From Nitrospirota bacterium (GTDB taxonomy: Bacteria; Nitrospirota; UBA9217): a stretch of DNA of 64,000 bases. The position numbers and the translations under genes were made by a program. Shown here piece by piece: positions 7,218 to 50,264 of this stretch; within the stretch, counting starts at the first letter, position 1; each line of letters begins with the position of its first letter. The stretch is from the NCBI GenBank assembly GCA_021814615.1, contig JAKAHZ010000001.1, forward strand, positions 31,178 through 95,177, in the 5' to 3' direction. The notes beneath the pieces are model-generated. The model was not told where the DNA came from, did no database searches, and saw only the letters and a program-made list of their open reading frames with translations.

Positions 7218-7305
7218 GACTCACCGTCCTTTCCATCTTTCTCGACCAAGACATGACTGTTTCCCTTCGTGATCTTCGTGTCCTTCGTGGTAAATCCGTC
7301 CAGAC

Positions 7306-8784: not shown

Positions 8785-8903
8785 CCTGTCTCACCTCCCG
8801 TCATCGTCGATATGCATCAATGATAACACAAAACGTAAGGCCGTTGCGTCCTCCGGGAAAGCAGTGATTCACCGGCATCTGCATGGTATAGTGCAGGAGC
8901 GGA

Positions 8904-13871: not shown

Positions 13872-13907
13872 CGGTCGCCTTACGGGCGGCCGGCCGATCT
13901 GCATTGC

Positions 13908-16403: not shown

Positions 16404-16613
16404 CCCATCGACGTTCATCCCCTTCCGTTCGCCTGGCGCCCGATCTTTCCCATCCCCACCCCGGCCCTCCCCTTGCAACCGGCTTCTCCCCCTTCCGCAG
16501 GCAGCTGAAAAAGCCTGGTTTCCTCTCTGCTGTTGATCCTGTTGTGCGACCGTTCACACGGTGGGACGCCGAGCGCTGAAACGTCTTCTTGTGAGGATCG
16601 TCGAAGGGAGACG

Positions 16614-30672: not shown

Positions 30673-31260
30673 CTATTTCCAGCGCGGAATATTATACAGC
30701 TTCGTGCAGATCGCGTCGAACTGAATTTCCTCGCTCCGCAGGCGGTCCCGGTATCGCTCGATGTCGCCGTCCCGGCCCTGGAGCTCCGGCGAAACGAGGC
30801 AGAGTTTGAACCCCGCGTCCTTGAGCGTGCGGAAGGCAGCCTTGTCGATCGGGAGCTTCGTAAAGCAGTCCACCCAGACCCAGTCCACTCTTCCCCTGAG
30901 CGCCAGCACCGTGTCCAGCCCCTCATACTCCGAATAGCGGACCGCGATGTTTCGCTCTCCCTGCGACGAGAGCAGCATCATCATGGGAAAGGATGAGTCG
31001 AGGAAGAAGTAATCGCGCACGCCGGCTCGCCGGATCAGCTCCAGCACGCGATGCTCGATCCGTTCGCTCTTGATGTTCAGGATGAGCGTGCCGTGGCGAT
31101 ACCCTGCGAGGTATTCCTCGAAGTCTTCGCCGTCGGTGAACGGGTCGTGCTGCAGGATCAGCCGATCCCCCCGGTCGCGAAGATCAAGCTCCACGCCGTA
31201 TTCCACGGGTACCTTGGCCAGCTCGTCTTTCCTGTTGATGCGGTGGGCGATGAACTTCAT
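30673..31260 (-). CDS. Glycerophosphodiester phosphodiesterase-like (GDPD/PI-PLC superfamily) short protein
   Basis: 'FIAHRINRKDEL...VELDLRDRGDRLILQHD' resembles GDPD His/Glu/Asp catalytic motifs; ATGA overlap with upstream GT2. Confidence 0.4.
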   Translation of the reverse strand: MKFIAHRINRKDELAKVPVEYGVELDLRDRGDRLILQHDPFTDGEDFEEYLAGYRHGTLILNIKSERIEHRVLELIRRAGVRDYFFLDSSFPMMMLLSSQGERNIAVRYSEYEGLDTVLALRGRVDWVWVDCFTKLPIDKAAFRTLKDAGFKLCLVSPELQGRDGDIERYRDRLRSEEIQFDAICTKLYNIPRWK

Positions 31261-31961
31261 GACGACAACCCCTTCTTGAGCCGCACGCTGAAATCGAGCG
31301 TGCGCTTGATGAACTTCCATTTCGACCGGAGGCCCGTGTTCCAGCTCGACGCGCCGTGGATGCGCGGCGGAAACCGCACCGGGAACCGGACGATCTCGAA
31401 TCCCCGCTTCCGCGCGAGGTAGAGCGCGTAGAGATCGAGGGAAAAATCGTCGGGCGGGTTCGTCCAGCTCTCGAGGAACCGGCGCGGAAAGAGGTTCGGC
31501 TGGGCATTGATGTCCCAGAGCCGCTGCCCGAGGTACAGCGTCTCGAACAAGCTCATCCCCACGGTGAACACCTGGTCGAAGAGCGGCCGTCCCCGGCGGC
31601 TGCCCTTGACCAGAATGGCCCCCGGATTGCCGCGACGCTCGATAATCTCCAGCGCGCGCAGCGCATCGGAGGGGTCGGTCTGCAGGTCGGCGTGGGTCCA
31701 TCCCGCGTACTCGCCGCGGGCCGCCGCCAGTCCCTGCCGGATCCCGTAGCCGTATCCGCGGTTCACCGGCACGAGCACGGTGCGCGCGAAGGGATAGCCC
31801 GGCAGCAACTCGTCCAGCACCTTCTGGCTGCCGTCCCGCGATCCATTGTTGACCAGGATCGCCTCGACATCGGGCCGGGTGATCGCCGCCTTCAGCCGCT
31901 CCAGGATCAGCGGGATGTTTTTCGCTTCATCGTAGCAGGGGATGACGAGCGAGAGTTTCAT
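31257..31961 (-). CDS. Glycosyltransferase family 2
   Basis: 'LVIPCYDE', 'VNNGSRDGS' GT-A motifs; 4-bp overlaps on both sides. Confidence 0.75.
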   Translation of the reverse strand: MKLSLVIPCYDEAKNIPLILERLKAAITRPDVEAILVNNGSRDGSQKVLDELLPGYPFARTVLVPVNRGYGYGIRQGLAAARGEYAGWTHADLQTDPSDALRALEIIERRGNPGAILVKGSRRGRPLFDQVFTVGMSLFETLYLGQRLWDINAQPNLFPRRFLESWTNPPDDFSLDLYALYLARKRGFEIVRFPVRFPPRIHGASSWNTGLRSKWKFIKRTLDFSVRLKKGLSS

Positions 31962-33589
31962 GGCTTCTTCCGGTCCCGGTGTTCGTACACGGTCAGATAG
32001 AAGCCGTTCGATCCGTTCTTCGTCTTGTTGCTGAAATCGAGTTCCGTCTCCGACGGCGCCTCGCGCAGGCCCGTGGATTCGAAGCCATCCTCCGCGAGGA
32101 TCGACGCGATCTGCTGCGGGAGCGGCCCCCGGTGGCTCACGAAGACGATTGCCCCGTCGTGAGGAATGCGGCCGATCAGTTCCCGCTGCAACGACGGAGC
32201 GTAGTAATTGAAGTTCGTCACCACATTGTAGTTCCGCATGACCGACGGCATCAGTAGGAGGTTCATGGTCCAGTCGTACTCGATCGCCAGCGCTTTTTTA
32301 TGCGCGGCAAGCACGGAGACGATCTCGCGCTCGTCGAAGGGATCCCGGCGCGACGCGAAGACTCCCGGCGCCGACGCAAGGAAGAGGAGCGCCATGACCG
32401 CGGCAAGGCCGGGTGCAGACCAGGCGCGGAGCCGCGCGGCGATCCCTTCCCGCCTCACCTTGCCGATGAGATACGAAAGCCCCTCGCCGATGCCGATGGC
32501 GAAGAGCGGGAGCAGGATCAGCGTATGACGCGTGGGCCCGAAGGAAAGCCGCCGCATCACGATGAGGACCGCCCAGGTGAGGGCGGTCACGCCGGCGAAG
32601 AGGCCGAGCATCCGCCGATGGCGGTCCTTGGTATCGATGCAGCTCGCCGCACCGGCGATAAAGAGCGCCAGGAGCAGGTATTCCAGAGGCGCGGCGAGGG
32701 GATGGCCCGCCGGAAGCAAAGCCACCGTGTTCCGGAAAACGGCGATACCGTTCTCCCCGAAGAACCGGACCGAGTACCACGCCGCTTCGAGGATCCCGGA
32801 AGGCAGCGAGAAGGCATACTCGCCGTTCACGCCCCCGTTCCAGCTGATATAGGCCGCCTTCTGCGGCACGGTCCTGATGAAGAAATAGTAGAGCGGCGCA
32901 ATGAAGAGAAGCACGACCGCGAGGGTAACGGCAAGGTTCGCTGCGGCATCTCGCATAGCCTCCCGCGATCCGCCCCGGCTCACAAAAAGCGCAATGAAGA
33001 CGCCCGGCAGAAAGAACAGGATCTGGTACTGGGCCGTGCAGAGCACACCCAGGCCCAGGCCCAGGAGCAGCATTCGCGGATAGGTCCAGGCGCCGGGCTT
33101 CAGCATTCCCTGGAGCAGGAGCAATACGGCAACAGCAGCCGGAATGCCGATCGCGTAACTCGACATCTGCTTCGCATAGATGATGTTCTCCCAGGAGAAA
33201 GCGGCTACGGCGACGGCAAGGAGCATCGACGGGAAACCTTCGCTCCCCCGGAAGCGCCAGTACCAGACGGCCAGCAGCGCGAGCCCGAGAGCGCCGGCAA
33301 GGAAAGACGGAAACCGTCCCCACCAGAGCACATCACGGTACGGCTGGTCGGAAGAGATGAGCAGCGCCGTGAGAAGGTACTGGAGCGGCGCATAGGTCGT
33401 CCTGTTCGCCACCGCATAAACCTTGTCAAGATATCCCGCTTCGCGCGGCCCGTCCTGGGCGTTGTTGATCGCCACCGCCACGTTCAGATCGTCGATATGG
33501 CTGAAGTGCGATCCCAGGCCGGCAAGACGGACGGCGATTCCCAGGAACAGCAGGCAGCACAACGCGATGATCCAGGTTCGTTTATTCAT
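31958..33589 (-). CDS. GT-C fold membrane glycosyltransferase (ArnT/PMT-like, family 39/83)
   Basis: Multi-TM with first-loop 'SHIDDLNV' acidic motif and large loops typical of polyprenyl-P-sugar-dependent GT-C enzymes. Confidence 0.65.
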   Translation of the reverse strand: MNKRTWIIALCCLLFLGIAVRLAGLGSHFSHIDDLNVAVAINNAQDGPREAGYLDKVYAVANRTTYAPLQYLLTALLISSDQPYRDVLWWGRFPSFLAGALGLALLAVWYWRFRGSEGFPSMLLAVAVAAFSWENIIYAKQMSSYAIGIPAAVAVLLLLQGMLKPGAWTYPRMLLLGLGLGVLCTAQYQILFFLPGVFIALFVSRGGSREAMRDAAANLAVTLAVVLLFIAPLYYFFIRTVPQKAAYISWNGGVNGEYAFSLPSGILEAAWYSVRFFGENGIAVFRNTVALLPAGHPLAAPLEYLLLALFIAGAASCIDTKDRHRRMLGLFAGVTALTWAVLIVMRRLSFGPTRHTLILLPLFAIGIGEGLSYLIGKVRREGIAARLRAWSAPGLAAVMALLFLASAPGVFASRRDPFDEREIVSVLAAHKKALAIEYDWTMNLLLMPSVMRNYNVVTNFNYYAPSLQRELIGRIPHDGAIVFVSHRGPLPQQIASILAEDGFESTGLREAPSETELDFSNKTKNGSNGFYLTVYEHRDRKKP

Positions 33590-33974
33590 AGGACAAGGCG
33601 CTCCTCCGGAAAACCAGCCATTTCATGCCGATGAAATTCAGCACCGTGCTCGTACCCGTGGCGGCGAGCACGGCGAAAAAAACCGCGCCGGGCAGAAGCA
33701 GCAGGCAAAGTTTGTTGACCAGCACGTTGGCGCCGAGCGTCGTTGCGTAGACCGCGGCGAACCGAACCGCCTCGGCCAGGGACCGGCGCTTCTGTTCGAA
33801 GGTCCAGTGCTTGTTCAGGAAATAGGACACCACGGTGCCGCAGACGAAGGAAACCGCCTTGGCGGGCGAGTGGCTTGTCACGTTCAGGAGCAGATAGTAG
33901 GTCCCCCAGTCCGTTCCGACGGCAAGGGAACCGACAACAAGGAACCGCTTGATCTCTTTCGTCAGTCGATGCAT
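33582..33974 (-). CDS. GtrA-family membrane protein (polyprenyl-P-sugar flippase-like)
   Basis: 4-TM ~130 aa 'FLVVGSLAVGTDWGTYYLLL...KHWTF' GtrA signature; overlaps GT-C gene. Confidence 0.7.
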   Translation of the reverse strand: MHRLTKEIKRFLVVGSLAVGTDWGTYYLLLNVTSHSPAKAVSFVCGTVVSYFLNKHWTFEQKRRSLAEAVRFAAVYATTLGANVLVNKLCLLLLPGAVFFAVLAATGTSTVLNFIGMKWLVFRRSALSYE

Positions 33975-34287
33975 GGTAAAATCACCTTTGCCGCGAGGGC
34001 ACGAAGACACAAAGGAACGGCAGACAACCAAGATGCTATGACCTCAAAAAACGCTGCGCTTGAACTCGCCTTCCCCATGCGGAAAGGATTTTCGCGGGGT
34101 GCCCTTCTTTGGGTCACCTCTTCGTGTCATTGCGACTCGTGATAAACAGCATTTATATGATGAACTCGTAAAAAGGCTTTCGCCACAGAGGTCACCGAGG
34201 ACACAGAGAAAAATATCTTGTTTTATGAAGCATTATCTCTGTGATCTCTGTGTGCTCTGTGGCAGATTTTGACTTTCTACGATTCTG

Positions 34288-35934
34288 TCATATATGCTTC
34301 TGGCAGAACTCCCGGTACTTCCTGTCGAGCTGTCCTACCCTCTCCGGATTCATGGTCACGTCCTTGTCCAGGCGATAGGGATGCCAGGCGCATTTATGAA
34401 AGAAACTCTGCCAGTACTCGTAGGTCCGGAGGTCGTTCGGCGTTCCCCAGCACAGGTAGCTGTCCACCGGGAAGACCTTGACCCGGAGCCCCATGCCGAT
34501 AAGCTCGTTCACCGTGCTGTCCACGTAGAACTCGTTGTTCACCCGCACGTTCCTGTCCGTCATGCGCCGGAGCGCCTCGGTGAAATGCCGAACCTTCCGG
34601 AACCAGAAAGTGCCCACGATCGCGTGATCGTTGTAGGGGTCCATCGAGACGGGCACCTTGACCGAAACGGCTTGCACGTCGTTTTCCCCCGTCGTCCTGA
34701 GCCAGCCGTACATGTGCGGATTCCGCTCAGCCGACGGATGCCTGCGGAAGCTCCAGACCACGGCATCGACCGCAGGGGCCTCCACGAGCCTGCGAAAGGC
34801 CTCACCGTCCCAAAGCATGCCGTTATCGCAGGCGCCGATCAGGAGCTCCGCCTCGGGATCGGCCTTCCGGAGGCCGATGGCGCAGGTGACAGCCTGGCCT
34901 TCCGTCACCGCATCGAGGCGCACCACGTTGGCCTCGGGATAGGCCGCGCGGATCGCCTGCTCCAGCGGATAGGCGCGGGCATGCTCGTCCAGGCAGACGA
35001 AGGTCTGCCGCTCCGCCTTCGGGAGATAGGCCGCGGCCTGCACGATCATGGGCTTCCCGCTCACTTCGATCAGGGGCTTGGGAACGGTGTAGCCCTCTCT
35101 GCGGAACCGCTCCCCTTTGCCTGCCAGCGGGATCAGCAGGATGCTGTTCCTTCGCGCGGCACCGTCGGGCAGCGGCCCGATGATCCTGCGGAAGTAGTCG
35201 GACCAGGCCTGGTACTCCTCCAGATCGCGCGGCGTGCCCCACTGGAGCATGTGCTGGATCTCGTAGATCGAGACCGTAAGTTTGTCGGCAACGAGCAGGT
35301 TATAGACCATGCTCACGTAGTACTCGCCCTTCACGTGAATGTCGGCGTCCATGAGCTTCCGGAAATACTTTTTCACCAGGTCGCCGCGCCGGAAATAGTA
35401 GGTCCCGTCGGAGGCGTACTCCTGCGTCCGGTCCTTGGTGAAGGGCTCCTTCTCGCGGATCTCGAGCATCCACTGTTCGCGATCGCGCATGAAGGCGTAG
35501 TTCGTGCTGCCGAGCATGTGGGGATGGAAGCCTTTATACGCCGGGATCGCGCCGTCGGCCTTCCGGCCCCGCGTGTGGCGAAGGAAACCGGCGTAGTCCC
35601 AGTACTTGGCGAAGTCGCAGTAGTTGACGATCACTTCCTCGTCGTCGGCGATGCGGTCGAAGATCCGGGCCACCGCGTAGACCGGCCCCTTCTTGTGCGG
35701 CGCGATCTCGACGATCTCGCCCGCCGGCGCGGCGCGCAGCAGGATCTCGCGCATCTTCGTGGTCCGCAGGTGGTCGCTGTTGCAGATGAAGGTGAACTTC
35801 GTCTCGCCGGGAAAGAGCGCGATCACGCGCTCGATGATCGTCTTGCCGTCCGCCTCGATCAACGGCTTGGGCAGCGTGTACCCCGCGTCAAGGAAGCGCT
35901 TGCCCGTGCCGGACATGGGAATGATGATGTGCAT
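34288..35934 (-). CDS. Tandem double nucleotidyltransferase (two NTP_transferase/GT-A-like domains)
   Basis: Two G-x-G-x-R-F loops 'IIPMSGTGKRF' and 'LIPLAGKGERF' ~270 aa apart. Confidence 0.6.
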   Translation of the reverse strand: MHIIIPMSGTGKRFLDAGYTLPKPLIEADGKTIIERVIALFPGETKFTFICNSDHLRTTKMREILLRAAPAGEIVEIAPHKKGPVYAVARIFDRIADDEEVIVNYCDFAKYWDYAGFLRHTRGRKADGAIPAYKGFHPHMLGSTNYAFMRDREQWMLEIREKEPFTKDRTQEYASDGTYYFRRGDLVKKYFRKLMDADIHVKGEYYVSMVYNLLVADKLTVSIYEIQHMLQWGTPRDLEEYQAWSDYFRRIIGPLPDGAARRNSILLIPLAGKGERFRREGYTVPKPLIEVSGKPMIVQAAAYLPKAERQTFVCLDEHARAYPLEQAIRAAYPEANVVRLDAVTEGQAVTCAIGLRKADPEAELLIGACDNGMLWDGEAFRRLVEAPAVDAVVWSFRRHPSAERNPHMYGWLRTTGENDVQAVSVKVPVSMDPYNDHAIVGTFWFRKVRHFTEALRRMTDRNVRVNNEFYVDSTVNELIGMGLRVKVFPVDSYLCWGTPNDLRTYEYWQSFFHKCAWHPYRLDKDVTMNPERVGQLDRKYREFCQKHI

Positions 35935-36102: not shown

Positions 36103-37197
36103 TCACTTCTTCCTCCGGTACTGCTCCGCCTCCCAGTTGCCGAGATAGCGGAGCTCCTCCGCGTTCAGGGAGCAGGCGCTGCTCCCCGCCGCGGCAAGCG
36201 TCATGAGCTGAAACTTGCAGACTTCCTCCGCCTCCCGTGCCTTGCGCACGCTCGCACCGGTGAAAAAAAGCTTCTCTCCAAACAACACGACGCGAGGAAG
36301 CTCGCCGTACTGTTCCACATAGCGTGTCACGGGATCGCGGTCGTCGAGACTCATGATCTCCACTGCCGTGGGGCCGCAGTACACCATGCCGTCGGGGCAG
36401 AAGGGAGCCGTGAACAAAAGCTGCCGATGGTCCTTGACGAGCGCGGCAAGGTCCGCGTCGCAGGAGAGATAGCTGACCACGCCGGAGCCGCCGTCATTCA
36501 CGAGCAACGAGATCCTGTTCGTCAGTTTGAATCGCTCCAGGTCAAGGCCGAAGGCCTTTTCGAGCGCAGCACAGACACGCTCAGTCGCATCCCCTGCCTC
36601 GTCCGCATCGTCGCCGCTTGTGATCAGGCCGTGGTTCTGGAGAAAGAGGACCTGCGGCTTTCGTCCCCGCTCACGGACCGCATCATCGACCGCCCGCTTG
36701 AGCAGAAGCGCAAGTTCGAGACCCGGCGTGCCGTAGGGCACGAACACAGCGTCCCCGCCAACCGCTTTCGCCAGCGTTTCCTTCCAGTCGCTCCGGCAGG
36801 CAGCGATGTTCACGACCAGCGGATGGGTGTGGAGCGTGAACCGGTCCAGCACCGCGTGCAAGAACGTCTCGATTGAGGGACGGGACCCCTGGTCCGTCGC
36901 GCAGGCCAGAAGCCTCTTCGTCGCCACGGCATCGCGCTCCCGCTTGTCCGGGATCGCCGCGAGCGTTGGATCGTCCAGGAGCGCCAGAACCGCAGCGAGA
37001 TCGACGCGGCTGTAGCCGCTGTTTTCCGTTACCTCGCTCAGCTGCACGCCCGACGCCTTGATGAGCATCGTGCCGTCGCCGTGCTTGACCGACGTGTTCC
37101 CGCCTCCGGCCTGGATCAGGTCGAACCGCTCGCCGGCCCTGCGGGACATGCGGACGAATGACGCCGTTGCTTCAGGAAAGGTGGCTGAGGATCTCAC
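36103..37197 (-). CDS. Class II aldolase/adducin-domain protein with C-terminal extension
   Basis: 'LIQAGGGNTS' and 'HTHP' class II aldolase zinc-site motifs. Confidence 0.6.
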   Translation of the reverse strand: MRSSATFPEATASFVRMSRRAGERFDLIQAGGGNTSVKHGDGTMLIKASGVQLSEVTENSGYSRVDLAAVLALLDDPTLAAIPDKRERDAVATKRLLACATDQGSRPSIETFLHAVLDRFTLHTHPLVVNIAACRSDWKETLAKAVGGDAVFVPYGTPGLELALLLKRAVDDAVRERGRKPQVLFLQNHGLITSGDDADEAGDATERVCAALEKAFGLDLERFKLTNRISLLVNDGGSGVVSYLSCDADLAALVKDHRQLLFTAPFCPDGMVYCGPTAVEIMSLDDRDPVTRYVEQYGELPRVVLFGEKLFFTGASVRKAREAEEVCKFQLMTLAAAGSSACSLNAEELRYLGNWEAEQYRRKK

Positions 37198-37855
37198 GAA
37201 GGTCCTTTACTTCCGTTGCGTTCGCCGGGAGCGGATGGGTCTCCCCCGACCGGTTGAGCCAGAATGACGGGATGCCGAGGCCCGACGCGCCCAGGATATC
37301 CCGGGCGAAACTGTCGCCGACCATGCAGACCCGGCCCGCGTCCATGCCGAGCTTCCGGAGCGCAAGCAGGAAGATCCAGGGATGGGGCTTCTCCCTTCCC
37401 GCCTCCTCGCTCGTGACCACGTGGCGGATGCGTCCGGCAAGCCCGAGCCTCTCGATCTTCCGGTACTGGATATGGGCCGTAAGATCGCTCACCAGGCAGA
37501 TCGGCCGGTTCCCTACACTGTCCAGGAACGACCGGGCGGCGGCGTCCATGATCATGTGCTCCAGAAACACGTCCCAGTACCGGGTGTAGAGCGCGAGGGC
37601 GTGCGCAAGAGGATCGGCGTCCAGGAGCTCGAGCATGCGCTGGAAATAGAGCAGCCGGTTGTGCGATGCCGCGGTCTCGGCGAGTTCGCGGTGCACCTGG
37701 CGGCGGCCGGCGGAAAAGGCCTCCCGGCAAGCGGCAGCGGAAACGCCGCAGCGCTCATGGGCAAGGCGGATCGCCGCTTCGAGCGCGGGCCGGTGCGCGG
37801 CCTCATAGTCGTAGAGCGTGTTGTCCAGGTCCAGGAGGATGCCGTCACACTTCAC
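37172..37855 (-). CDS. HAD-superfamily hydrolase (subfamily IA)
   Basis: Motif I 'LLDLDNTL', motif III/IV 'MVGDSFARD'. Confidence 0.75.
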   Translation of the reverse strand: MKCDGILLDLDNTLYDYEAAHRPALEAAIRLAHERCGVSAAACREAFSAGRRQVHRELAETAASHNRLLYFQRMLELLDADPLAHALALYTRYWDVFLEHMIMDAAARSFLDSVGNRPICLVSDLTAHIQYRKIERLGLAGRIRHVVTSEEAGREKPHPWIFLLALRKLGMDAGRVCMVGDSFARDILGASGLGIPSFWLNRSGETHPLPANATEVKDLREILSHLS

Positions 37856-39887
37856 GTTCCCGGCCCTCCTCGCGGATCTTTTCGCTCAGCACGAGCAGCA
37901 CCACGAGCTGCACGAACCCGCGATAACCGTCCTGCCACGAGACCCCGGCAGGAATGAGCTCCTGGATGTTCGGGATCACCTCGTAGGCCACGGACCGGAT
38001 CGTCTCGACGCGCGGGGGCGTGGCAAGCGTCACATACTGGTTCTTCAGGTCGTCGGAATAGTCCCAGGCGGCGGCGACCGACGCGGCTTCGAGCCGCTTC
38101 AGAAGCTCCTCGATATGCACGTTCGAGCTCAGCGTGACCTTGAGCGTCAGGCGCTGCTCCGCGTTCTCCCTGCCGTCCCCGGCGCCGTAGCAGACCGTCA
38201 CATCGGCGTGCTCCCGCTGGGGATGGATGTACTTCCGGGCGTCGTCCATGCGGCGCTCGATCTGCTCCAGCACCTTCCGCTCGTCGTAGCCCCGGTTCTG
38301 CATGTCCCGGGAGATCTTCCAGCGCCGCCGCAGCGCTTCCTCGGTGTCGAGGTAGATCTTGAGATCGATGACCTTGCGCGAGATGGGAAGATAAAAGGGA
38401 TGGAGGCCCGACAGCACGATGAAGTCCCGCGGCTCGATCTTCCGCTCTTCCGTGAACCGGCCGGTGTCGTGGTCGTACTCGGTCCTGCTGATCCGCCTGC
38501 CGTACTTGAGCTCCAGGAGGTCTTCGGCCTGCTTGTGCAGATAGTTCGCCTTGGGATCGAGATGGGTCAGGCTCTGCCAGTGCTCGTCGCCCCGCTCCCA
38601 GCGGTGGTCCGCGTCGCCTTCGAGCTCGAGCAGCCGTGTGCCCAGGAGGAGTTTCAGGTCCGTCAGGAGCGTGGACTTGCCCGAGGCGCTGTCTCCGCCG
38701 ATGCCGATGATCAGGTTGTGCGTCCGGCGGTAGACGGCGTTGCTTTTGACGCCGAACTTGTACATGGAATAGATCGTCGCGAAGAGCACGACCTCGAGCA
38801 CCGAATAGGCCATGTTCCTGAGCTTCTCGTCGCGCACCTTGAGATCGATGGGGCCGCCGAGGAAGGAAAGGTCCTGGTAGTCGGGAAGATGGAACACGAT
38901 GAAGTAGACAAGGTACATGGCGCAGAGCGCAGCATAGAGCGCCACGATGGACTCGTGCTTCGCCGAATACTGGATGAAGAAGATGCTCAGGAAAGGAATC
39001 ATCCACAAATACCACGCCGGCGAGGGAAGGATCAGGAGCACGAAAGCGGCGAAGAGCATGCCCAGGAAGGAATGGAAGAGATCGCTGTTGATCTTGGGAT
39101 AGGCGGCGAACCGCGCGTAGAGCGCCGCCACGGCGAAGACGGGCAGATAGATCTTCACGTCCCCCATGGAGAAGACGGCATCGAACAGCTTCATCTGTTT
39201 CGGGTTCCGGAGGACCATGACCGAGTACCCCTCGCTTGCCAGGAAGGGGGAGCTGATCGCCAGGTACACCGCGGCGGGAATGAGCGCAAGGGGAATCAGG
39301 AACGCCTTCTTGCCTGTCCGGAACTGGTAGATCAGCATGAGCGGCAGCGCGGCGACTACATGGAACTTGATGCTCATCGCCAGGCCAAGGAGCAGGGCGG
39401 ACAGGACAACCCGTTCGACCGACAGGCTGACGACCGCAAGCATCAGCACGGCCATGGGGAGCAGGTCGAGCTGGGAGTGCATGTACGACGCATAGAGCAC
39501 AATCGGCGAGGCGAAGTAGAAGAGCATGACCTCGCGAAACCGCGACGGGAAGAGCCTGAGCAGCACAACGGCGATCGCGAGGTCGGCCGCCAGGGTCGGC
39601 AGCTTGAAGAAGAAGTTCTGGGCCGCCACGCTCCCGATGCCCAGGAGATGCACCGGAAGATACGCAAGCGATTCTATATAGAGCATCAGCGGCGGATAGG
39701 GGAACATATCCGGCTGCAGGTTCTGGAAATGCTGCCAGGGATTGCCGCCGTGGGTCAGGAAGTACTGGACGAAAGGCAGGAACAGCTTGTCCTGATACTC
39801 CGAGGAAAAGAGCGCAAGGACGACGATTTTGCACGCGATAATCAGCAGGATAACGCGTTTCTGCGCGGCGCTGAGGCGACGGAACAA
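37845..39887 (-). CDS. Fusion protein: N-terminal GT-C/mannosyltransferase-like polytopic membrane domain + C-terminal uridine kinase/phosphoribulokinase-like P-loop domain
   Basis: ~9 TM helices over residues 1-380; then 'IIGIGGDSASGKSTL' (uridine kinase/PRK Walker A) and a soluble C-terminal domain. Confidence 0.6.
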   Translation of the reverse strand: MFRRLSAAQKRVILLIIACKIVVLALFSSEYQDKLFLPFVQYFLTHGGNPWQHFQNLQPDMFPYPPLMLYIESLAYLPVHLLGIGSVAAQNFFFKLPTLAADLAIAVVLLRLFPSRFREVMLFYFASPIVLYASYMHSQLDLLPMAVLMLAVVSLSVERVVLSALLLGLAMSIKFHVVAALPLMLIYQFRTGKKAFLIPLALIPAAVYLAISSPFLASEGYSVMVLRNPKQMKLFDAVFSMGDVKIYLPVFAVAALYARFAAYPKINSDLFHSFLGMLFAAFVLLILPSPAWYLWMIPFLSIFFIQYSAKHESIVALYAALCAMYLVYFIVFHLPDYQDLSFLGGPIDLKVRDEKLRNMAYSVLEVVLFATIYSMYKFGVKSNAVYRRTHNLIIGIGGDSASGKSTLLTDLKLLLGTRLLELEGDADHRWERGDEHWQSLTHLDPKANYLHKQAEDLLELKYGRRISRTEYDHDTGRFTEERKIEPRDFIVLSGLHPFYLPISRKVIDLKIYLDTEEALRRRWKISRDMQNRGYDERKVLEQIERRMDDARKYIHPQREHADVTVCYGAGDGRENAEQRLTLKVTLSSNVHIEELLKRLEAASVAAAWDYSDDLKNQYVTLATPPRVETIRSVAYEVIPNIQELIPAGVSWQDGYRGFVQLVVLLVLSEKIREEGREREV

Positions 39888-40113
39888 GCTTAACCACCTT
39901 TATGCAGGAAGGCGATTCTCCGACAAACGGACTCACGAAATCTTATAGTATCCGGCCCGGCCAAGTCAACTGAATTCTCCGGGGCAGACGAATGAACCTG
40001 TTGATTTGGCGGATAATTTCTGCTATCGTACCGCTGATTTCGTTTTCCCCCGGTGTAAGCCGATCCGGAGCCTTCCTCCGGGAAAGCTCTCATTGCCCAA
40101 GGCGGTGTGACAC

Positions 40114-40542
40114 ATGAGCCTGAAATCCCGCGTCATTCCCCCGGCTGTCGCCCTTGCCGTCATCATCCTCACCGTCATCCTCTATCCTCAGCCGCTCAAC
40201 ACGCTTCAGGCGCTGGGGCAGGCGGGCGAAACGCTCTTCTCCCCCGATCTGTTCCTGCAGCTCGCGCGCCAGGCGGGAACGCCGCGGGCCGGTGAACAGG
40301 TGCTCCCGCCCCAGGTCCAGGCCATGCTCTTTCTGCTGCGGACGAATAACGTGACATCCTACTGCTATTCCGCGTCCATCGGAAAAAACGAAGAGATCAG
40401 GCAGCGCCTGATCGAGGGCGCCCTTCCCGCCCGTTTCAGGGAAACGGCGCCTTATGTGCTGATGATCGAAAGCGAACAGGCGCCGCGTCCCTGCAGATCC
40501 CTGGCGTCGCGCGAAGGAGTGCTCCTTGTCTATTGCCCTTAG
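40114..40542 (+). CDS. Hypothetical protein with N-terminal TM/signal anchor
   Basis: ORF with hydrophobic N-terminus; overlaps downstream membrane gene by 17 bp. Confidence 0.4.
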   Translation: MSLKSRVIPPAVALAVIILTVILYPQPLNTLQALGQAGETLFSPDLFLQLARQAGTPRAGEQVLPPQVQAMLFLLRTNNVTSYCYSASIGKNEEIRQRLIEGALPARFRETAPYVLMIESEQAPRPCRSLASREGVLLVYCP

Positions 40543-41902
40543 TCTTTTTCTGCCGGTCCTCTTCGGAATCGGGTGGCTCGTCATTCAGCTGGCCCCTTCC
40601 GTGGCGGAGGGAGCGCACACGAGACAGGATGCGGCGCGCCTGCTGTCCCTTGCGCTCATGCTCGGCCTCCTGGTCAACTACGCCGTTGTGCTTATTGCCG
40701 GCAGCCTCGTCATTGCCTTCCTGATCGCGGCCGCATTGGCGGCCGGGGGCTGGTTCTTCGCCCTTCGAAAGACCGGGACGCTGCGGGCCGTCCTCGGCCT
40801 CGGACGGCTGGCCTGGGTCGTCCTCCTTGTTCTGGCGGTGCTCTTCGCACTGTTGATGCTTTTCCTTCCCGCCGCCGAATGGGATGCCAGGTCGATCTGG
40901 CTCTTTCACGGGAAAATGATCTTTTTCAACGACCGTGCACTGAACCTCGCGGGGGGATGGGACCAGCCCTTTGCCAGTTTTTCCCACACCGGCTATCCCG
41001 AGCTGGGACCGATCCTGTTCGCGCAATTCGCGACACTTGCCGGATTCTGGAACGAATATTTCCCGAAAGCCGGTTTGCTGGCGCTCCTGCTGCCCGCGGT
41101 GATCGGCCTTTTCGCCTTCGTCCGCAAACCCGGAACCAGCGGCGTCTACCTGTTGATCATGACGGTCTTCTTTCTGGGGGGATGGCTCTGGAACGGATAT
41201 ATGGACGGGTATCTGGCGCTCTATGCCGCCGTGGCCTGCCTGTTCCTCGGACGGTGGATCACGGGCAATGATCGCCGCGACGGGATCGCGGGAATCGCCG
41301 GCCTGGCCGTTACCGCCTCGCTCAAGAACGAAGGCGACCTCGTGATCCTTGTCGCGCTGATCAGCCTGGCGGTGATCGTTCTTCTCCGCGATCGATCGCT
41401 GCGCCCGCTCGCGAACCTGATCTCCGGCAGAACCTGGTCCCTCGCCGCATCCGCCTTCCTCGGCCCGATCGCCTGGATGGCGATCAAGAAGCTGTGGCAC
41501 CTTCCCGGGGACATGCCTTCTTCACCCACCGATCTTCATCTGATCGCGGAAAGGCTGGGCCAGGGAGCTGCGGGCGCCATCGCCACGGCGCTGTTCGTCA
41601 AAGCAGAGGGGGCAAAGGCAGCCGGGATCGCTGCCGTCTCGATCGTCGCGGCATTGACCGTGAAGCGGCGGGTTCCCGTCGCGGCATGGTTCCTGCTCCT
41701 TACCGCCGCCCTCTACGGGACCGCGATGTTCTGGATCTACCTGACGACGAACGCCGACCTGAACTGGCATCTCGGCACGAGCGCCGGCCGTACCACGCTG
41801 CCGGTGATCGAGCTCCTGGCCGCCGCGGCTTTTGCATGTTTGTTCGATTTGGAAGATCCCGGGGGGCCGGCGCCCCGCGCCGGTCGCCGGCCCTCTCGCT
41901 AG
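40526..41902 (+). CDS. Polytopic membrane protein, hypothetical (possibly GT-C-like)
   Basis: ~12 hydrophobic helices; no catalytic motif recognised. Confidence 0.45.
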   Translation: MSIALSLFLPVLFGIGWLVIQLAPSVAEGAHTRQDAARLLSLALMLGLLVNYAVVLIAGSLVIAFLIAAALAAGGWFFALRKTGTLRAVLGLGRLAWVVLLVLAVLFALLMLFLPAAEWDARSIWLFHGKMIFFNDRALNLAGGWDQPFASFSHTGYPELGPILFAQFATLAGFWNEYFPKAGLLALLLPAVIGLFAFVRKPGTSGVYLLIMTVFFLGGWLWNGYMDGYLALYAAVACLFLGRWITGNDRRDGIAGIAGLAVTASLKNEGDLVILVALISLAVIVLLRDRSLRPLANLISGRTWSLAASAFLGPIAWMAIKKLWHLPGDMPSSPTDLHLIAERLGQGAAGAIATALFVKAEGAKAAGIAAVSIVAALTVKRRVPVAAWFLLLTAALYGTAMFWIYLTTNADLNWHLGTSAGRTTLPVIELLAAAAFACLFDLEDPGGPAPRAGRRPSR

Positions 41903-42345
41903 GCCGAGTCCGCCTTGCGGTACCGGGTCACGGCCCAGAAGAAAAGGAAATACGAAGCCAGGCCGGCAACAAGGCCGGCGACGAGCGATCCGGCCACAAA
42001 GGGCCAGAGGAAGGGCTTCAGGATCGTGAAGAGCTCGCGGAACCCAATCTCCCTCCAGGAGATCTCGGGGATCACCATGTCCGAGCCCGTGAGCTTGACG
42101 CCGAGCCAGAGATTGAAGGCGTACATGGGCACCATGGTCCAGGGATTGTTGACGAAGGTTGCGGTCAGGACCACGACCTTGCTCACCCTGAATATCCAGG
42201 CGAAGAAAATGCAGGAAACGATATGCAGCCCCAGCCAGGGGCTGAAGGCGATGAACACGCCGATGGCCGCGGCAAGCGCCAGCTTGTGCGGTGGATCATT
42301 GAGCTTCAGGATCCCGTGAAAGCGGTCCCGTATATACTTCCTCAC
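41899..42345 (-). CDS. DUF2062-family membrane protein
   Basis: 'AAAIGVFIAFSPWLGLH...LWLG' DUF2062 signature. Confidence 0.5.
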   Translation of the reverse strand: MRKYIRDRFHGILKLNDPPHKLALAAAIGVFIAFSPWLGLHIVSCIFFAWIFRVSKVVVLTATFVNNPWTMVPMYAFNLWLGVKLTGSDMVIPEISWREIGFRELFTILKPFLWPFVAGSLVAGLVAGLASYFLFFWAVTRYRKADSA

Positions 42346-43373
42346 CTGCCCCGTCTCCTTGCATAGCGCGATGTCGCGCCAAAATGATCGTACCCTGACG
42401 GACGGAGAACTGTTCTCTTGCCATCGATTCCGGAAAGGATTATTGTCCTTCTCCTGGTCAGGAACCCTATCGCCGTTGCATCGATTGGAAGCTTTTTAAC
42501 CCTTCTCCATTTCTCACGCGGAACAGTAAAAAGAAGCTCGTAATCCTCTCCTCCCGACAGGGCATATTCCAGCGGCGATCGTCGCAAAGTAGACACAGAA
42601 CATAAACTTCGTGAAAGCGGCACATTCTTGGCGAGAACAAGCGCGCCTACACCGCTTTCTTCGCAAATATGCTCCAAGTCGGAGGAGAGACCATCGCTTA
42701 CATCGATCATCGCCGACGCTATACCTGCAAGTGCGAGTTTCCGCCCTTCGTCAACTCGCGGCCTTGGCCGCAAATGTTTCTCGATCAGTTTTTTGAAAGT
42801 ACTCGTGCGATGCGCTACTTGTCCTTTAGCCTCTGCTTTCAAGAGCTCCAATCCGGCCGCAGAATCTCCTAATGTACCGGTCACGAAGATAATATCGCCC
42901 ATCTGAGCACCTGAACGTTTAAGTACTTGCCTTGCTGGAACCTCACCCAAAATAACTATGTTTACAATTAGATCCCGCAGAGAGCCACAGGTATCGCCAC
43001 CCACAAGCGACACTTTATGTCTCTTTAGCAGTGCATTAAGCCCTCGATAGAAAGCAGAGATGTTCTCGACAGTGACGTGACGTGGAATTGCCAATGTTGC
43101 CAAACAGAACCGCGGCGTGCCGCCCATGGCGGCGATGTCGCTCAGATTCACTGCAGCTGACTTCCACCCCAGCGATCGGAAGTCCGTCGTCCGTAGGTCA
43201 AAGTGTACACCTTCGAGCAACATATCCGTCGTGGCAAGCAGCTCTGCGCCGGGTGAACATCGCAACACCGCTGCGTCATCGCCGATACCGATCTGGACAC
43301 CTTTTCTTATGCGACCCGCTGTTTTCCTGATGCGTTTGATGAGACCGAACTCACCGATATCGGATATCTTCAT
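42342..43373 (-). CDS. thiL: Thiamine-monophosphate kinase
   Basis: 'GIGDDAAVL', AIR-synthase-related fold motifs; 4-bp overlap with downstream gene. Confidence 0.75.
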   Translation of the reverse strand: MKISDIGEFGLIKRIRKTAGRIRKGVQIGIGDDAAVLRCSPGAELLATTDMLLEGVHFDLRTTDFRSLGWKSAAVNLSDIAAMGGTPRFCLATLAIPRHVTVENISAFYRGLNALLKRHKVSLVGGDTCGSLRDLIVNIVILGEVPARQVLKRSGAQMGDIIFVTGTLGDSAAGLELLKAEAKGQVAHRTSTFKKLIEKHLRPRPRVDEGRKLALAGIASAMIDVSDGLSSDLEHICEESGVGALVLAKNVPLSRSLCSVSTLRRSPLEYALSGGEDYELLFTVPREKWRRVKKLPIDATAIGFLTRRRTIILSGIDGKRTVLRPSGYDHFGATSRYARRRGR

Positions 43374-43514
43374 AGTATCGTCGCGACCGCAAAGACACAA
43401 AGGCACTAAGCGTTCGAAGTATTCCTTCGTGTCTTAGTGCCTTGGCGGCCGGTCTTAATTGTGCAGCTTTCTTACTCCTGTCTACTGACTTCTGTCTCCT
43501 GTGTTCTGTGCTTC

Positions 43515-45929: not shown

Positions 45930-46153
45930 TCAGGACTCCTTTTGCCGCTCTCGGCGCGGCCGGGGATCATACAGGGAGAACGAACTGCTCGATAATAGAC
46001 TCGCAAAAAAAATCTATTTAGCCACAGAGGTCACAGAGAACTCAGAGAAACAATTTCAATCTCTAAAGATCTACCTCTGTGCTCTCTGTGCGCTCTGTGG
46101 CAGCTCTTGACGTATTACGATTTTCATCAATCGATGAAACCACTCCACTGCCG

Positions 46154-47023
46154 TCAAACCTTCAATTTCCGGAGATACTCGCGGAACTCGCCGCCGAACT
46201 CGGGATTCTTGAGCCCGAACTCCACCGTGGCCTTGAGAAAGCCGAGTTTGTCGCCGGCGTCGTACCGCGTTCCCTGGAACTCGTAGGCGTAGATCGGCTG
46301 GTCTTCCATCAGGATCCGGAGACCGTCGGTCAGCTGGATTTCGCCGCCCTTGCCCGGCCGCGTGCGCTCCAAGGCATCGAAGATCTCCGGCGTCAGGATG
46401 TACCGGCCGATGATGGCCAGGTTTGACGGCGCTTCGTCGGGAGCGGGCTTCTCCACCATGTCCTTCACGAGATAGACGCCCTTCTCGATCTTCTTGCCGT
46501 CGATGATTCCGTAATGCTGGGTTTGGGACCGCGGCACCTTCTGGATCGCCAGGATCGTGGCGGGATACCGCTTGTACACGTCCATCATCTGACGGAGCGC
46601 GGGGACCTTGCCGTCGATGATGTCGTCGCCCAGGAGCACGGCAAAGGGATCGTTGCCCACCACGCGCTTGGTCGTGAGCACCGCGTGGCCCAGGCCGAGC
46701 GCCTTCTTCTGGCGGATGTAGCAAAAGGTCACCATGTCGGCGATGCGCTGGACCTCGGAGAGCATCTTGTGCTTGCCCTTCGCCTTCAGCTCTTCTTCGA
46801 GTTCGAAGGCCACATCGAAATGGTCCTCGATCGCCCGCTTGCCGCGGCCCGTGACCAGCACCACCTCGCCAATGCCCGACGAGACCGCCTCCTCCACCAC
46901 GTACTGGATCAGCGGCTTGTCCACCAGGGGCAGCATCTCCTTGGGCGATGCCTTGGTCGCCGGCAGGAACCGCGTGCCAAGGCCCGCTGCGGGAAAGACC
47001 GCTTTCGTGATTTCCTTCTTCAA
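46154..47023 (-). CDS. galU: UTP--glucose-1-phosphate uridylyltransferase
   Basis: 'KAVFPAAGLGTRFLPATKASPKEMLP' canonical GalU N-terminus. Confidence 0.9.
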   Translation of the reverse strand: MKKEITKAVFPAAGLGTRFLPATKASPKEMLPLVDKPLIQYVVEEAVSSGIGEVVLVTGRGKRAIEDHFDVAFELEEELKAKGKHKMLSEVQRIADMVTFCYIRQKKALGLGHAVLTTKRVVGNDPFAVLLGDDIIDGKVPALRQMMDVYKRYPATILAIQKVPRSQTQHYGIIDGKKIEKGVYLVKDMVEKPAPDEAPSNLAIIGRYILTPEIFDALERTRPGKGGEIQLTDGLRILMEDQPIYAYEFQGTRYDAGDKLGFLKATVEFGLKNPEFGGEFREYLRKLKV

Positions 47024-47175
47024 AGGCCGTTCCTCCGGATGCGTATTCTAGGGAAACAGGTGGTAAAAGTCAATGATCAGAACAAAACCTGCCACGAGGG
47101 CGCTAAGGCACGAAGGGATGCCTGCATTCCATGTCTTCACGCCTTCGAGTCTTTGCGGCAAAAAAGCCGCGGCGA

Positions 47176-48597: not shown

Positions 48598-48658
48598 GAA
48601 CTCTCCGTCAACTAAGACTGGTTCTTTGTACTCGGTACGTTGTACTCAGTACTGTTCT

Positions 48659-49417: not shown

Positions 49418-49421
49418 GGCC

Positions 49422-50194: not shown

Positions 50195-50264
50195 AGATCA
50201 GTACTGAGTACAAAGTACAGAGTACAGAGTGTAATCAAAATCATATCTCCTAGTCCGGGTTTTT

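What the first reader, a model, noticed from the sequence alone, without database searches (positions are those of the whole stretch)
37845..39887. Membrane GT-C-like domain fused to a uridine-kinase/phosphoribulokinase-like P-loop domain
A ~380-aa polytopic N-terminal half resembling GT-C/mannosyltransferase membrane domains is fused to a soluble domain with the uridine kinase/PRK Walker A (GIGGDSASGKST). I do not know of a described glycosyltransferase-nucleoside(sugar) kinase fusion. It could couple generation of a phosphorylated or nucleotide precursor to membrane transfer.
Basis: partly seen in the sequence, partly recalled or inferred. Interest (0 to 1): 0.65.

Follow-up and report, generated by a model that had tools for sequence, protein, structure and literature searches.

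The report
Membrane glycosyltransferase fused to phosphoribulokinase
A real and widely conserved bacterial protein joins a membrane sugar-transferase fold to a complete phosphoribulokinase, and it leads a mobile, uncharacterised gene cassette that probably builds a cell-surface sugar from ribulose phosphate, a use of this Calvin-cycle-type kinase that has not been described.

The parts
38733..39887 (-). N-terminal GT-C-fold membrane domain of the fusion protein (aa 1-385). It has 12 predicted TM helices with both termini in the cytoplasm. The conserved residues FPY62-64, D102, D141 and K174 lie on the outer face.
37845..38720 (-). C-terminal cytoplasmic PRK-type kinase domain of the fusion protein (aa ~390-680, plus the stop codon).
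39894..39969 (-). Translation and transcription signals of the fusion gene: Shine-Dalgarno AAGGTGG at 39900-39894 and a sigma-70-like site, TTGACT-18-TAAGAT, at 39969-39940.
   Evidence: These are consensus matches only.
37172..37855 (-). HAD-family phosphatase (227 aa). Its start overlaps the end of the fusion gene by 11 nt. Its closest curated family is ribulose-1,5-bisphosphate 5-phosphatase.
   Evidence: Pfam Hydrolase/HAD_2. NF053830 scores 168.8 bits, E 1.4e-49, below the 330-bit cut-off. All 14 of 14 orthologues score best to NF053830. The gene is adjacent to the fusion in 66 of 80 genome loci.
36103..37197 (-). Class II aldolase-family protein (364 aa) with a C-terminal extension of ~150 aa. 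It resembles the aldolase domain of RhaD-type aldolase/SDR proteins.
   Evidence: PF00596 E 1.6e-19. NCBIfam PRK08324-type N-terminal domain. Present in 72 of 80 loci. The HxH / NHG / PSxE motifs are visible in the translation.
34288..35934 (-). Tandem double nucleotidyltransferase (548 aa, two NTP-transferase domains).
   Evidence: Pfam NTP_transferase and NTP_transf_3. 68 of 80 genome loci and 36 of 36 metagenome loci. Split into two genes in L085.
33582..34031 (-). GtrA-family small membrane protein, a putative flippase for polyprenyl-phosphate-linked sugar.
   Evidence: PF04138 E 1.4e-23. Present in 29 of 82 genome loci and 27 of 36 metagenome loci.
31958..33589 (-). Accessory 543-aa polytopic membrane protein with a C-terminal soluble domain. 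It has no family match and is not a core cassette member.
   Evidence: Homologues lie next to the cassette in only a few loci.
31257..31961 (-). GT2 glycosyltransferase (234 aa), a candidate polyprenyl-phosphate glycosyltransferase.
   Evidence: PF00535 E 2.4e-21. Orthologues at 51-68% identity in 64 of 82 genome loci and 36 of 36 metagenome loci.
30673..31260 (-). GDPD/PI-PLC-like minimal TIM-barrel phosphodiesterase (195 aa). It is the most conserved member of the cassette.
   Evidence: AlphaFold pLDDT 94.7. The best Foldseek hits are GDPDs, E 1e-6, TM 0.62-0.72. H6-R7, E24-x-D26 and H38 are invariant and D39 is nearly invariant. 6489 homologues.

Best explanation
The gene encodes a bifunctional inner-membrane protein. 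Its N-terminal 12-TM domain is a GT-C-fold glycosyltransferase whose conserved site faces the periplasm or cell exterior. Its C-terminal domain is a complete, catalytically equipped PRK-type kinase in the cytoplasm. It is the lead gene of a self-contained, horizontally mobile cassette that decorates an envelope glycan with a unit derived from a pentulose phosphate. The proposed sequence is as follows. (1) The PRK domain phosphorylates ribulose-5-phosphate, or a very close ketopentose phosphate, at C1 to give the 1,5-bisphosphate. (2) The adjacent HAD phosphatase removes the 5-phosphate to give a pentulose-1-phosphate. (3) The class II aldolase-family enzyme remodels that ketose-1-phosphate by epimerisation or retro-aldol chemistry. 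(4) The tandem nucleotidyltransferase activates it, with help from the GDPD-like phosphodiesterase. (5) The GT2 loads it onto polyprenyl phosphate. (6) GtrA flips it. (7) The GT-C domain transfers it to the acceptor. Fusing the first and last enzymes keeps precursor supply and the final transferase together at the membrane in fixed 1:1 stoichiometry, and may allow feedback between them. What is shown: the folds, the residue conservation, the topology bias, the synteny and the mobility. What is inferred: every substrate and product, the order of steps 3-5, and the acceptor.
Confidence: 0.55

Rival explanations
1. The kinase domain does not phosphorylate ribulose-5-phosphate. It acts instead on a different phosphorylated sugar, a lipid-linked intermediate at the membrane surface, or serves a regulatory or ATP-sensing role. 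The rest of the cassette still performs a Gtr-like envelope glycosylation with an unrelated sugar.
For: The score is below the PRK equivalog cut-off. Ser replaces the Glu of PRK's EGLH motif, and the family has its own invariant residues, E423 (first clade only), W430 and W437. Tethering to the membrane would suit a lipid-linked substrate. The closest structures include 'cyanobacteria-specific PRK' paralogues, one of them deposited under the molecule name 'uridine kinase'.
Against: Every residue that binds Ru5P or catalyses phosphoryl transfer in PRK is invariant across clades only 27-30% identical. The adjacent HAD is consistently closest to RuBP 5-phosphatase. An alternative cassette form carries ribulose-phosphate 3-epimerase.
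Confidence: 0.2
2. The N-terminal GT-C-fold domain is not a transferase. It would be a membrane anchor, lipid-binding scaffold or flippase-like module, as PIG-U is in GPI transamidase, that holds the kinase and its partner enzymes at the membrane where the GT2 works.
Against: The invariant residues, including two Asp and one Lys, lie on the predicted outer face rather than the cytoplasmic face. The accessory membrane proteins are missing from most cassettes, which leaves the fusion as the only GT-C candidate. The best structural matches are active mannosyl- and glucosyltransferases that use polyprenyl-phosphate donors.
Confidence: 0.15
3. [quoted passage not shown] On this reading the glycosylation genes are merely neighbours.
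For: In haloarchaea the RuBP 5-phosphatase (HAD) and a class II aldolase form an operon and carry out exactly these steps (PMC9700705). The cassette HAD is closest to that phosphatase.
Against: The three genes are found with the nucleotidyltransferase, GT2 and GDPD-like genes in ~89% of independently seeded loci. The kinase is covalently fused to a GT-C fold. The aldolase belongs to a different subfamily from the haloarchaeal Ru1P aldolase. The route would spend ATP to replace steps the ordinary pentose phosphate pathway already provides. The cassette travels as a unit on plasmids and inside polysaccharide loci.
Confidence: 0.08
4. It is a membrane-anchored Calvin-cycle phosphoribulokinase that supplies RuBisCO.
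For: The PRK fold and active site are present.
Against: No RuBisCO is encoded in the window or in 168 related loci (2.47 Mb). Hosts include Babeliales, Chlamydiae, gut Gastranaerophilales, Leptospiraceae, Paenibacillus and an E. coli plasmid. From general knowledge, these are not Calvin-cycle autotrophs. The regulatory Cys pair of plant-type PRK is absent (alignment).
Confidence: 0.02

Closest known systems
Plant-type, cyanobacterial and archaeal phosphoribulokinase (PF00485; PDB 6kev, 6hzk, 5b3f, 9qko)
   Different: It is fused behind a 385-aa membrane domain. Ser replaces the Glu of the EGLH motif. There is no redox Cys pair. It scores below the curated PRK cut-off. There is no RuBisCO context, and it sits in a glycan-modification operon.
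GT-C glycosyltransferases that use polyprenyl-phosphate sugars: GPI mannosyltransferase I (PIG-M/Gpi14), ALG3, ALG6 and mycobacterial PimE (GT87)
   Different: No curated family match passes threshold for the window protein. The acidic residue of the first external loop is not universally conserved. Instead, D102, D141 and K174 are invariant. A cytoplasmic kinase is fused to the C-terminus, which is not described for any GT-C that I know of or could find.
Gtr-type three-component glycosylation systems (GtrA flippase, GtrB GT2, GtrC-type or GT-C transferase), including CsbB/GtcA/YfhO-type teichoic-acid glycosylation
   Same: A GtrA-family gene, a GT2 gene and a polytopic GT-C-fold transferase lie together, which implies a polyprenyl-phosphate-sugar intermediate used outside the cytoplasm.
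   Different: This cassette carries its own four- to five-enzyme precursor pathway (PRK, HAD, aldolase, double nucleotidyltransferase, GDPD-like) instead of drawing on a housekeeping UDP-sugar. The GT2 is a short 234-aa form, and from what I recall GtrB has C-terminal membrane helices that this form would lack. GtrA is missing from many copies. No phage carriage was found.
Haloarchaeal non-carboxylating pentose bisphosphate pathway (RuBP 5-phosphatase plus Ru1P aldolase; Sato et al. 2022, PMC9700705)
   Same: A HAD phosphatase of the same closest family is encoded next to a class II aldolase, downstream of an enzyme that makes RuBP.
   Different: RuBP would come from a PRK rather than from ribose-1,5-bisphosphate isomerase. 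The aldolase belongs to another subfamily. The context is biosynthetic (nucleotidyltransferase, GT2, GtrA, GT-C) rather than nucleoside catabolism.
GDP-heptose-type logic (kinase HddA, HAD phosphatase GmhB, nucleotidyltransferase HddC)
   Same: The order is the same: a kinase makes a sugar bisphosphate, a HAD phosphatase removes the distal phosphate, and a nucleotidyltransferase activates the remaining phosphate. This comparison rests on my own knowledge.
   Different: The enzyme families differ and the substrate is a ketopentose. The remaining phosphate would be on C1, which is not the anomeric carbon.

Membership tests
Phosphoribulokinase (PF00485 PRK family, plant/cyanobacterial/archaeal type) | Pfam PRK domain above the gathering score | tested here: met
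   122.8 bits against a cut-off of 22, aa 393-565.
Phosphoribulokinase (PF00485 PRK family, plant/cyanobacterial/archaeal type) | Complete PRK fold, including the C-terminal extension beyond the uridine-kinase core | tested here: met
Phosphoribulokinase (PF00485 PRK family, plant/cyanobacterial/archaeal type) | P-loop, catalytic Asp/His dyad (CrPRK D57/H105) and the basic residues of the Ru5P site | tested here: met
   G398-K404, D425, H473, H428, R432, K524, R527, D528 and R532 are invariant in 37 sequences and in homologues at 27-30% identity. The mapping uses the 6kev alignment and PMC9978339. The assignment of K/R/D/R to the Ru5P site rests on my recollection of the R. sphaeroides mutagenesis literature.
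Phosphoribulokinase (PF00485 PRK family, plant/cyanobacterial/archaeal type) | Curated NCBIfam PRK model cut-off | tested here: not met
   PRK07429.1 scores 191.4 bits against a cut-off of 236, covering profile positions 7-208 of 326.
Phosphoribulokinase (PF00485 PRK family, plant/cyanobacterial/archaeal type) | Glu of the EGLH motif (the Walker-B acid, from my own knowledge) | tested here: not met
   Position 493 is Ser in 28, Ala in 5, Cys in 3 and Thr in 1 of 37 sequences. It is also Ser in the divergent clade.
Phosphoribulokinase (PF00485 PRK family, plant/cyanobacterial/archaeal type) | Genomic association with RuBisCO or the Calvin cycle | tested here: not met
Phosphoribulokinase (PF00485 PRK family, plant/cyanobacterial/archaeal type) | ATP-dependent conversion of Ru5P to RuBP | not testable with these tools
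   This needs an enzyme assay.
Uridine/cytidine kinase | Curated udk model cut-off, and closer similarity to uridine kinase than to PRK | tested here: not met
   TIGR00235 scores 67.6 bits against 220.3, and PRK05480 scores 70.8 against 180. PDB uridine kinases score 37-40 bits against 124 for PRK.
GT-C glycosyltransferases (PIG-M / ALG3 / ALG6 / PimE-like) | GT-C membrane fold | tested here: met
GT-C glycosyltransferases (PIG-M / ALG3 / ALG6 / PimE-like) | Sequence membership of a curated GT-C family (GT87, ALG3, PMT_2 and others) | tested here: not met
   For the window protein, GT87 gives only E 0.8 and 9.8 bits against a cut-off of 25, although the match spans profile positions 1-236 of 237. 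One homologue (P0008) passes ALG3 marginally, 25.7 against 23.6 bits.
GT-C glycosyltransferases (PIG-M / ALG3 / ALG6 / PimE-like) | Conserved acidic catalytic residue in the first extracytoplasmic loop | tested here: inconclusive
   Most of the 37 sequences have D60 or E61, but the three Paenibacillus sequences lack it, as do the three proteobacterial plasmid proteins. D102 and D141 are invariant and are predicted to lie at the outer face.
GT-C glycosyltransferases (PIG-M / ALG3 / ALG6 / PimE-like) | Conserved site facing the non-cytoplasmic side | tested here: met
   The positive-inside rule and the outer-face concentration of invariant residues support this. It is a topology inference, not a measurement.
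GT-C glycosyltransferases (PIG-M / ALG3 / ALG6 / PimE-like) | Transfer from a polyprenyl-phosphate-linked donor to an acceptor | not testable with these tools
   Only context supports it: GT2 and GtrA in the operon.
Gtr-like three-component envelope glycosylation system | GtrA-family protein encoded with the system | tested here: met
   PF04138 E 1.4e-23 at window 33582-34031. It is present in only 29 of 82 and 27 of 36 related loci.
Gtr-like three-component envelope glycosylation system | GtrB-type GT2 that makes a polyprenyl-phosphate sugar | tested here: inconclusive
   A 234-aa GT2 matches PF00535. Matches to the ArnC and PpgS models are weak, E 7e-9 and 1e-4.
Haloarchaeal non-carboxylating pentose bisphosphate pathway | RuBP 5-phosphatase (NF053830) above cut-off | tested here: not met
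   It is the best-scoring family in all 14 orthologues but falls below the cut-off: 168.8 against 330 bits.
Haloarchaeal non-carboxylating pentose bisphosphate pathway | FucA-type Ru1P aldolase (NF053831) | tested here: not met
   17.8 bits against a cut-off of 300. The protein resembles the RhaD-type aldolase domain instead.

The most novel reading that the evidence does not exclude
The cassette is the missing route to activated pentulofuranose (ribulose or xylulose) donors for bacterial glycans. RuBP would serve as a biosynthetic intermediate in a 'phosphate walk': PRK adds a C1 phosphate, and the HAD removes the C5 phosphate. One nucleotidyltransferase domain then makes an NDP-1-pentulose. 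The GDPD/PI-PLC-like enzyme moves the phosphate onto the anomeric C2 through a 1,2-cyclic phosphate. The second nucleotidyltransferase domain makes the true glycosyl donor. GT2, GtrA and the GT-C domain deliver the pentulose to the cell surface. This would account for the otherwise odd pairing of a tandem nucleotidyltransferase with a phosphodiesterase. It would also give phosphoribulokinase and RuBP a role outside carbon fixation.
Probability: 0.1. Interest if true: 0.9.

Novelty: new variant of a known kind. Interest (0 to 1): 0.7.

Why it matters
PRK is treated as one of the two signature enzymes of the Calvin cycle. Here a PRK with an intact active site is welded to a glycosyltransferase fold in thousands of bacteria from lineages not known as Calvin-cycle autotrophs. 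Among them are intracellular lineages, gut Melainabacteria, Leptospiraceae, Paenibacillus and an E. coli plasmid. If the model holds, ribulose bisphosphate is a precursor for a surface glycan, and a widespread mobile glycan-modification module has gone unnoticed. Such a module would bear on serotype variation, phage and immune recognition, and envelope biology. It may also bear on an open question: a review of E. coli O antigens states that genes for the nucleotide precursor of xylulofuranose have not been found (PMC7685785). The IS26-bounded E. coli copy makes the hypothesis directly testable in a standard host.

Tried and rejected
Literature: ten full-text searches combined PRK, uridine kinase, GT-C, GtrA, fusion, Melainabacteria, CDP-ribulose and pentulose glycans. 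One of the ten was rejected for a term-syntax error. None of the rest found a description of the fusion or the cassette.

Uridine-kinase reading: rejected on scores and residues.

Calvin-cycle reading: rejected, because there is no RuBisCO and the hosts are heterotrophs.

Phage-borne serotype-conversion module: no match among 50,697 phage records.

Stand-alone version of this GT-C subfamily: not found. The short hits I inspected were truncated fusions or frameshifted ORFs.

Sequence-level PDB relatives of the 195-aa protein: none, with either a single sequence or a profile. Only the fold search identified it as GDPD-like.

Link to organisms known to make xylulose-containing glycans (E. coli O95/O97, Y. 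enterocolitica O:10, C. jejuni RM1221, E. saburreum, Devosia submarina): not established. Only 2 of 5,426 complete E. coli genomes, both on plasmids, matched the nucleotidyltransferase DNA at blastn sensitivity. Source names in the protein searches did not include those species.

I could not read the coordinates of the predicted model, so residue-to-membrane distances and the inter-domain interface were not examined.
Full report
1. THE OBSERVATION

Its TTG start is preceded by the Shine-Dalgarno sequence AAGGTGG (39900-39894, 6-nt spacer) and by a sigma-70-like site at 39969-39940. An identical protein is on record from a Nitrospiraceae MAG (P0001). The Walker A motif GIGGDSASGKST is at aa 395-406.

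2. THE KINASE HALF

Pfam places aa 393-565 in the PRK/uridine-kinase family (E 2e-35). Within that family the domain is PRK-like, not uridine-kinase-like.
- NCBIfam PRK07429 scores 191 bits, against 68-71 bits for the uridine-kinase models.
- Solved cyanobacterial PRKs score 124 bits, against 37-40 bits for uridine kinases.
- An AlphaFold model built on 37 homologues is confident (pLDDT 89.2, pTM 0.84).

So the whole PRK fold is present, including its C-terminal extension.

The catalytic Asp/His dyad described for plant-type PRK (Asp57/His105; PMC9978339) maps through the 6kev alignment onto D425 and H473. These two residues are invariant in 37 homologues, as are the P-loop, H428, R432 and the WKIxRDxxxRG motif (K524, R527, D528, R532). 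They also remain invariant in three plasmid-borne homologues only 27-30% identical to the window protein.

The domain differs from canonical PRK in four ways:
- Ser replaces the Glu of the EGLH motif in both clades. I recall that Glu as the Walker-B acid.
- The redox Cys pair is absent (alignment).
- The score is below NCBIfam's curated cut-off of 236 bits.
- The family has its own invariant Trp residues, W430 and W437.

3. THE MEMBRANE HALF

No Pfam or NCBIfam model passes threshold. GT87 gives only E 0.8, although the match spans almost the whole model. One homologue passes ALG3 marginally.

Using the 12 helices of the model as TM segments, K+R density across 37 sequences is 0.25 per residue in the predicted cytoplasmic loops and 0.058 in the predicted external loops. 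This supports a topology with both termini inside and places the kinase in the cytoplasm.

Conservation is concentrated on the outer face. There are 19 invariant positions in 139 external-loop residues, against 1 in 20 internal-loop residues. The outer TM halves hold 9 in 108, against 2 in 103 for the inner halves.

The FPY motif, D102, D141 and K174 survive in the divergent clade at 27-30% identity. The acidic residue just before FPY in the first external loop, where I would expect a GT-C catalytic base, is present in most members. It is absent in the Paenibacillus and proteobacterial members. I could not read the model's coordinates, so the placement of D102, D141 and K174 at the outer leaflet is inferred from topology.

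4. IS THE FUSION CONSERVED?

Yes, strikingly.
- Full-length homologues of 42-67% identity come from Nitrospirota, Omnitrophota, Melainabacteria, Margulisbacteria, Babeliales/TM6, Chlamydiae, Cloacimonadota, Elusimicrobia, Leptospiraceae, Campylobacterales, Bacteroidota, Paenibacillus and others.
- A second clade, mainly proteobacterial, has at least 1,814 members at E<=1e-10.
- An exhaustive search with the membrane domain alone found 197 clusters (at 50% identity) at E<=1e-30.
- About 120 of the best 150 hits in that search are 560-1058 aa. The shorter ones I inspected are truncated fusions or frameshifted ORFs.

I therefore found no convincing stand-alone version of this GT-C subfamily.

5. 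GENOMIC CONTEXT

In the window the fusion gene overlaps the start of a HAD phosphatase (37172-37855). That gene in turn overlaps a class II aldolase-family gene (36103-37197). Downstream follow:
- a tandem double nucleotidyltransferase (34288-35934);
- GtrA (33582-34031; PF04138, E 1.4e-23);
- an accessory 543-aa membrane protein;
- a 234-aa GT2 (31257-31961);
- a 195-aa protein (30673-31260).

The 195-aa protein has no Pfam hit. It models confidently (pLDDT 94.7) as a minimal TIM barrel closest to glycerophosphodiester phosphodiesterases. It keeps the HR / ExD / HD signature.

Counts in 80 genome loci seeded on the fusion (plus 2 loci fetched by exact protein look-up, 82 in all for the GT2 and GtrA counts):

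| Gene | Loci with the gene |
|---|---|
| Aldolase | 72 of 80 |
| Nucleotidyltransferase | 68 of 80 |
| HAD | 66 of 80 |
| GDPD-like | 58 of 80 |
| GT2 | 64 of 82 |
| GtrA | 29 of 82 |

The order is usually the same.

Counts in 36 metagenome loci seeded independently on the GDPD-like gene, keeping only loci with at least 8.5 kb upstream:

| Gene | Loci with the gene |
|---|---|
| Nucleotidyltransferase | 36 |
| GT2 | 36 |
| HAD | 32 |
| Aldolase | 32 |
| Fusion | 31 (plus 1 partial) |
| GtrA | 27 |

The cassette lies beside polysaccharide genes in Paenibacillus, Aliarcobacter, Azospirillum brasilense plasmid p5 and Hirschia baltica pHbal01. In E. coli plasmid p5-S1-CAM-01-A the complete set sits between two IS26 copies. 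No phage carries it.

6. WHAT THE CONTEXT SAYS ABOUT CHEMISTRY

The HAD's best curated match, in all 14 orthologues tested, is the haloarchaeal ribulose-1,5-bisphosphate 5-phosphatase. The best E is 4e-56, against 1e-36 for the next family, though the score is below the equivalog cut-off. That enzyme was shown experimentally to be specific for RuBP and to yield ribulose-1-phosphate. It forms an operon with a class II (FucA-type) aldolase that acts on Ru1P (PMC9700705).

Here the same pair of enzyme types follows a PRK. The aldolase, however, belongs to a different subfamily: it resembles the RhaD-type aldolase domain, and the Ru1P-aldolase model scores only 17.8 bits.

A minority form of the cassette (L085, L104/L105, L135) lacks kinase, HAD and aldolase. 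It has a ribulose-phosphate 3-epimerase next to the nucleotidyltransferase, which is split into two genes in L085, and the GDPD-like gene. This is independent evidence that the nucleotidyltransferase handles a pentulose phosphate.

No RuBisCO is encoded anywhere in the 2.47 Mb of window plus loci.

7. MOST LIKELY MECHANISM (confidence about 0.55)

The cytoplasmic PRK domain makes a pentulose-1,5-bisphosphate from Ru5P. The HAD then removes the 5-phosphate, and the aldolase-family enzyme remodels the resulting ketose-1-phosphate. The tandem nucleotidyltransferase, with the GDPD-like enzyme, activates it. The GT2 loads it onto polyprenyl phosphate and GtrA flips it. Finally the outward-facing GT-C domain attaches it to an envelope glycan.

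The fusion joins the first and last enzymes of the route. Because their sites face opposite sides of the membrane, the benefit is likely co-localisation, fixed stoichiometry or feedback, not direct channelling.

The folds, conservation, topology bias, synteny and mobility are shown. All substrates, the order of the middle steps and the acceptor are inferred.

Weak points:
- A C1 phosphate on a 2-ketose is not anomeric.
- The roles of the second nucleotidyltransferase domain and of the phosphodiesterase are unexplained.
- The Rpe variant may not converge on the same intermediate.

8. RIVAL EXPLANATIONS

- The kinase has another substrate or a regulatory role (0.2).
- The GT-C domain is a non-catalytic anchor like PIG-U (0.15).
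- Kinase, HAD and aldolase are a catabolic shunt that merely neighbours glycosylation genes (0.08).
- It is a Calvin-cycle PRK (0.02).

Evidence for and against each is given in the Rival explanations section.

9. COMPARISON WITH WHAT IS KNOWN, AND NOVELTY

Each part belongs to a known kind: PRK, GT-C, and Gtr-like lipid-linked glycosylation. The combination does not. It consists of a PRK fused to a GT-C, at the head of a cassette with a dedicated pentulose-phosphate pathway, a tandem nucleotidyltransferase and a GDPD-like enzyme. I found no paper describing it. Databases label it 'uridine kinase', 'phosphoribulokinase' or 'hypothetical protein'.

Pentuloses are rare but real glycan components. 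Xylulose occurs in E. coli O95, Y. enterocolitica O:10, the C. jejuni RM1221 capsule and E. saburreum (PMC8707391). A review states that genes for a nucleotide precursor of xylulofuranose have not been found (PMC7685785). I could not link the cassette to any of those organisms, so this remains a lead only.

I rate it a new variant of a known kind, with interest 0.7.

Noticed in passing
L166 (E. coli plasmid NZ_CP145712.1, locus 4986-17325): The complete cassette (nucleotidyltransferase, GtrA, GT2, GDPD-like, fusion, HAD, aldolase and a 586-aa hypothetical protein) lies between two IS26 copies on a 33-kb plasmid from a human stool isolate. A second E. coli plasmid (NZ_JCAPUP010000005.1) gives the same nucleotidyltransferase match. 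The arrangement looks like a composite transposon and offers a ready experimental system.
   Followed up: partly
L085:5429-10594; also L135 and L104/L105: An alternative cassette form has no kinase fusion, HAD or aldolase. Instead, a ribulose-phosphate 3-epimerase sits next to the nucleotidyltransferase and the GDPD-like gene. In L085 the nucleotidyltransferase is split into two 261-aa genes, with a 646-aa polytopic membrane protein and two PMT_2 GT-C genes nearby.
   Followed up: partly
L083/L084:8905-10588: The GtrA-GT2-GDPD-like triad occurs on its own, next to flagellar genes. No fusion, HAD, aldolase or nucleotidyltransferase lies within 10 kb, so the cassette can be split into sub-modules.
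   Followed up: no
window 31958-33589 (-): A 543-aa polytopic membrane protein with a C-terminal soluble domain is inserted between GtrA and GT2. It has no Pfam or NCBIfam match. Homologues (23-32% identity) flank the cassette in only a few other loci (L002, L005, L037, L079, L100, L143). It may be a second, accessory transferase.
   Followed up: partly
window 40526-41902 (+): A 458-aa polytopic membrane protein is transcribed divergently from the fusion gene. It has no family match and no homologue in any related locus.
   Followed up: partly
window 29560-30261 (-): A second GT2 (233 aa) lies just downstream of the cassette. Its best match is the AglJ / dolichyl-phosphate-hexose transferase type (110 bits). 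It is not the orthologue of the conserved cassette GT2.
   Followed up: partly
L013, L015, L016 (Obscuribacterales): Some Obscuribacterales genomes carry a second, slightly longer copy of the fusion gene (~720 aa, 44-46% identity) with none of the cassette genes nearby. The same genomes also carry a full cassette (L006, L007).
   Followed up: no
fusion protein aa 493 (window ~38409-38411): PRKs have Glu in the EGLH motif, which I recall as the Walker-B acid. This position is Ser, Ala, Cys or Thr throughout the family, including the clade at 27-30% identity. E423, just before the catalytic Asp, is invariant only in the first clade.
   Followed up: partly
L044, L054, L056, L071, L079, L140, L148, L150, L153: In several loci only about 250 residues of the 548-aa nucleotidyltransferase match. 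This suggests single-domain or split versions of the tandem enzyme.
   Followed up: no
window 26819-28309 (-), 42342-50213: The flanking genes look unrelated to the cassette. They are a methyl-accepting chemotaxis protein, an AIR-synthase-related protein, Lon protease, another nucleotidyltransferase (46154-47023) and an MlaD/MlaE/ABC-ATPase set.
   Followed up: no
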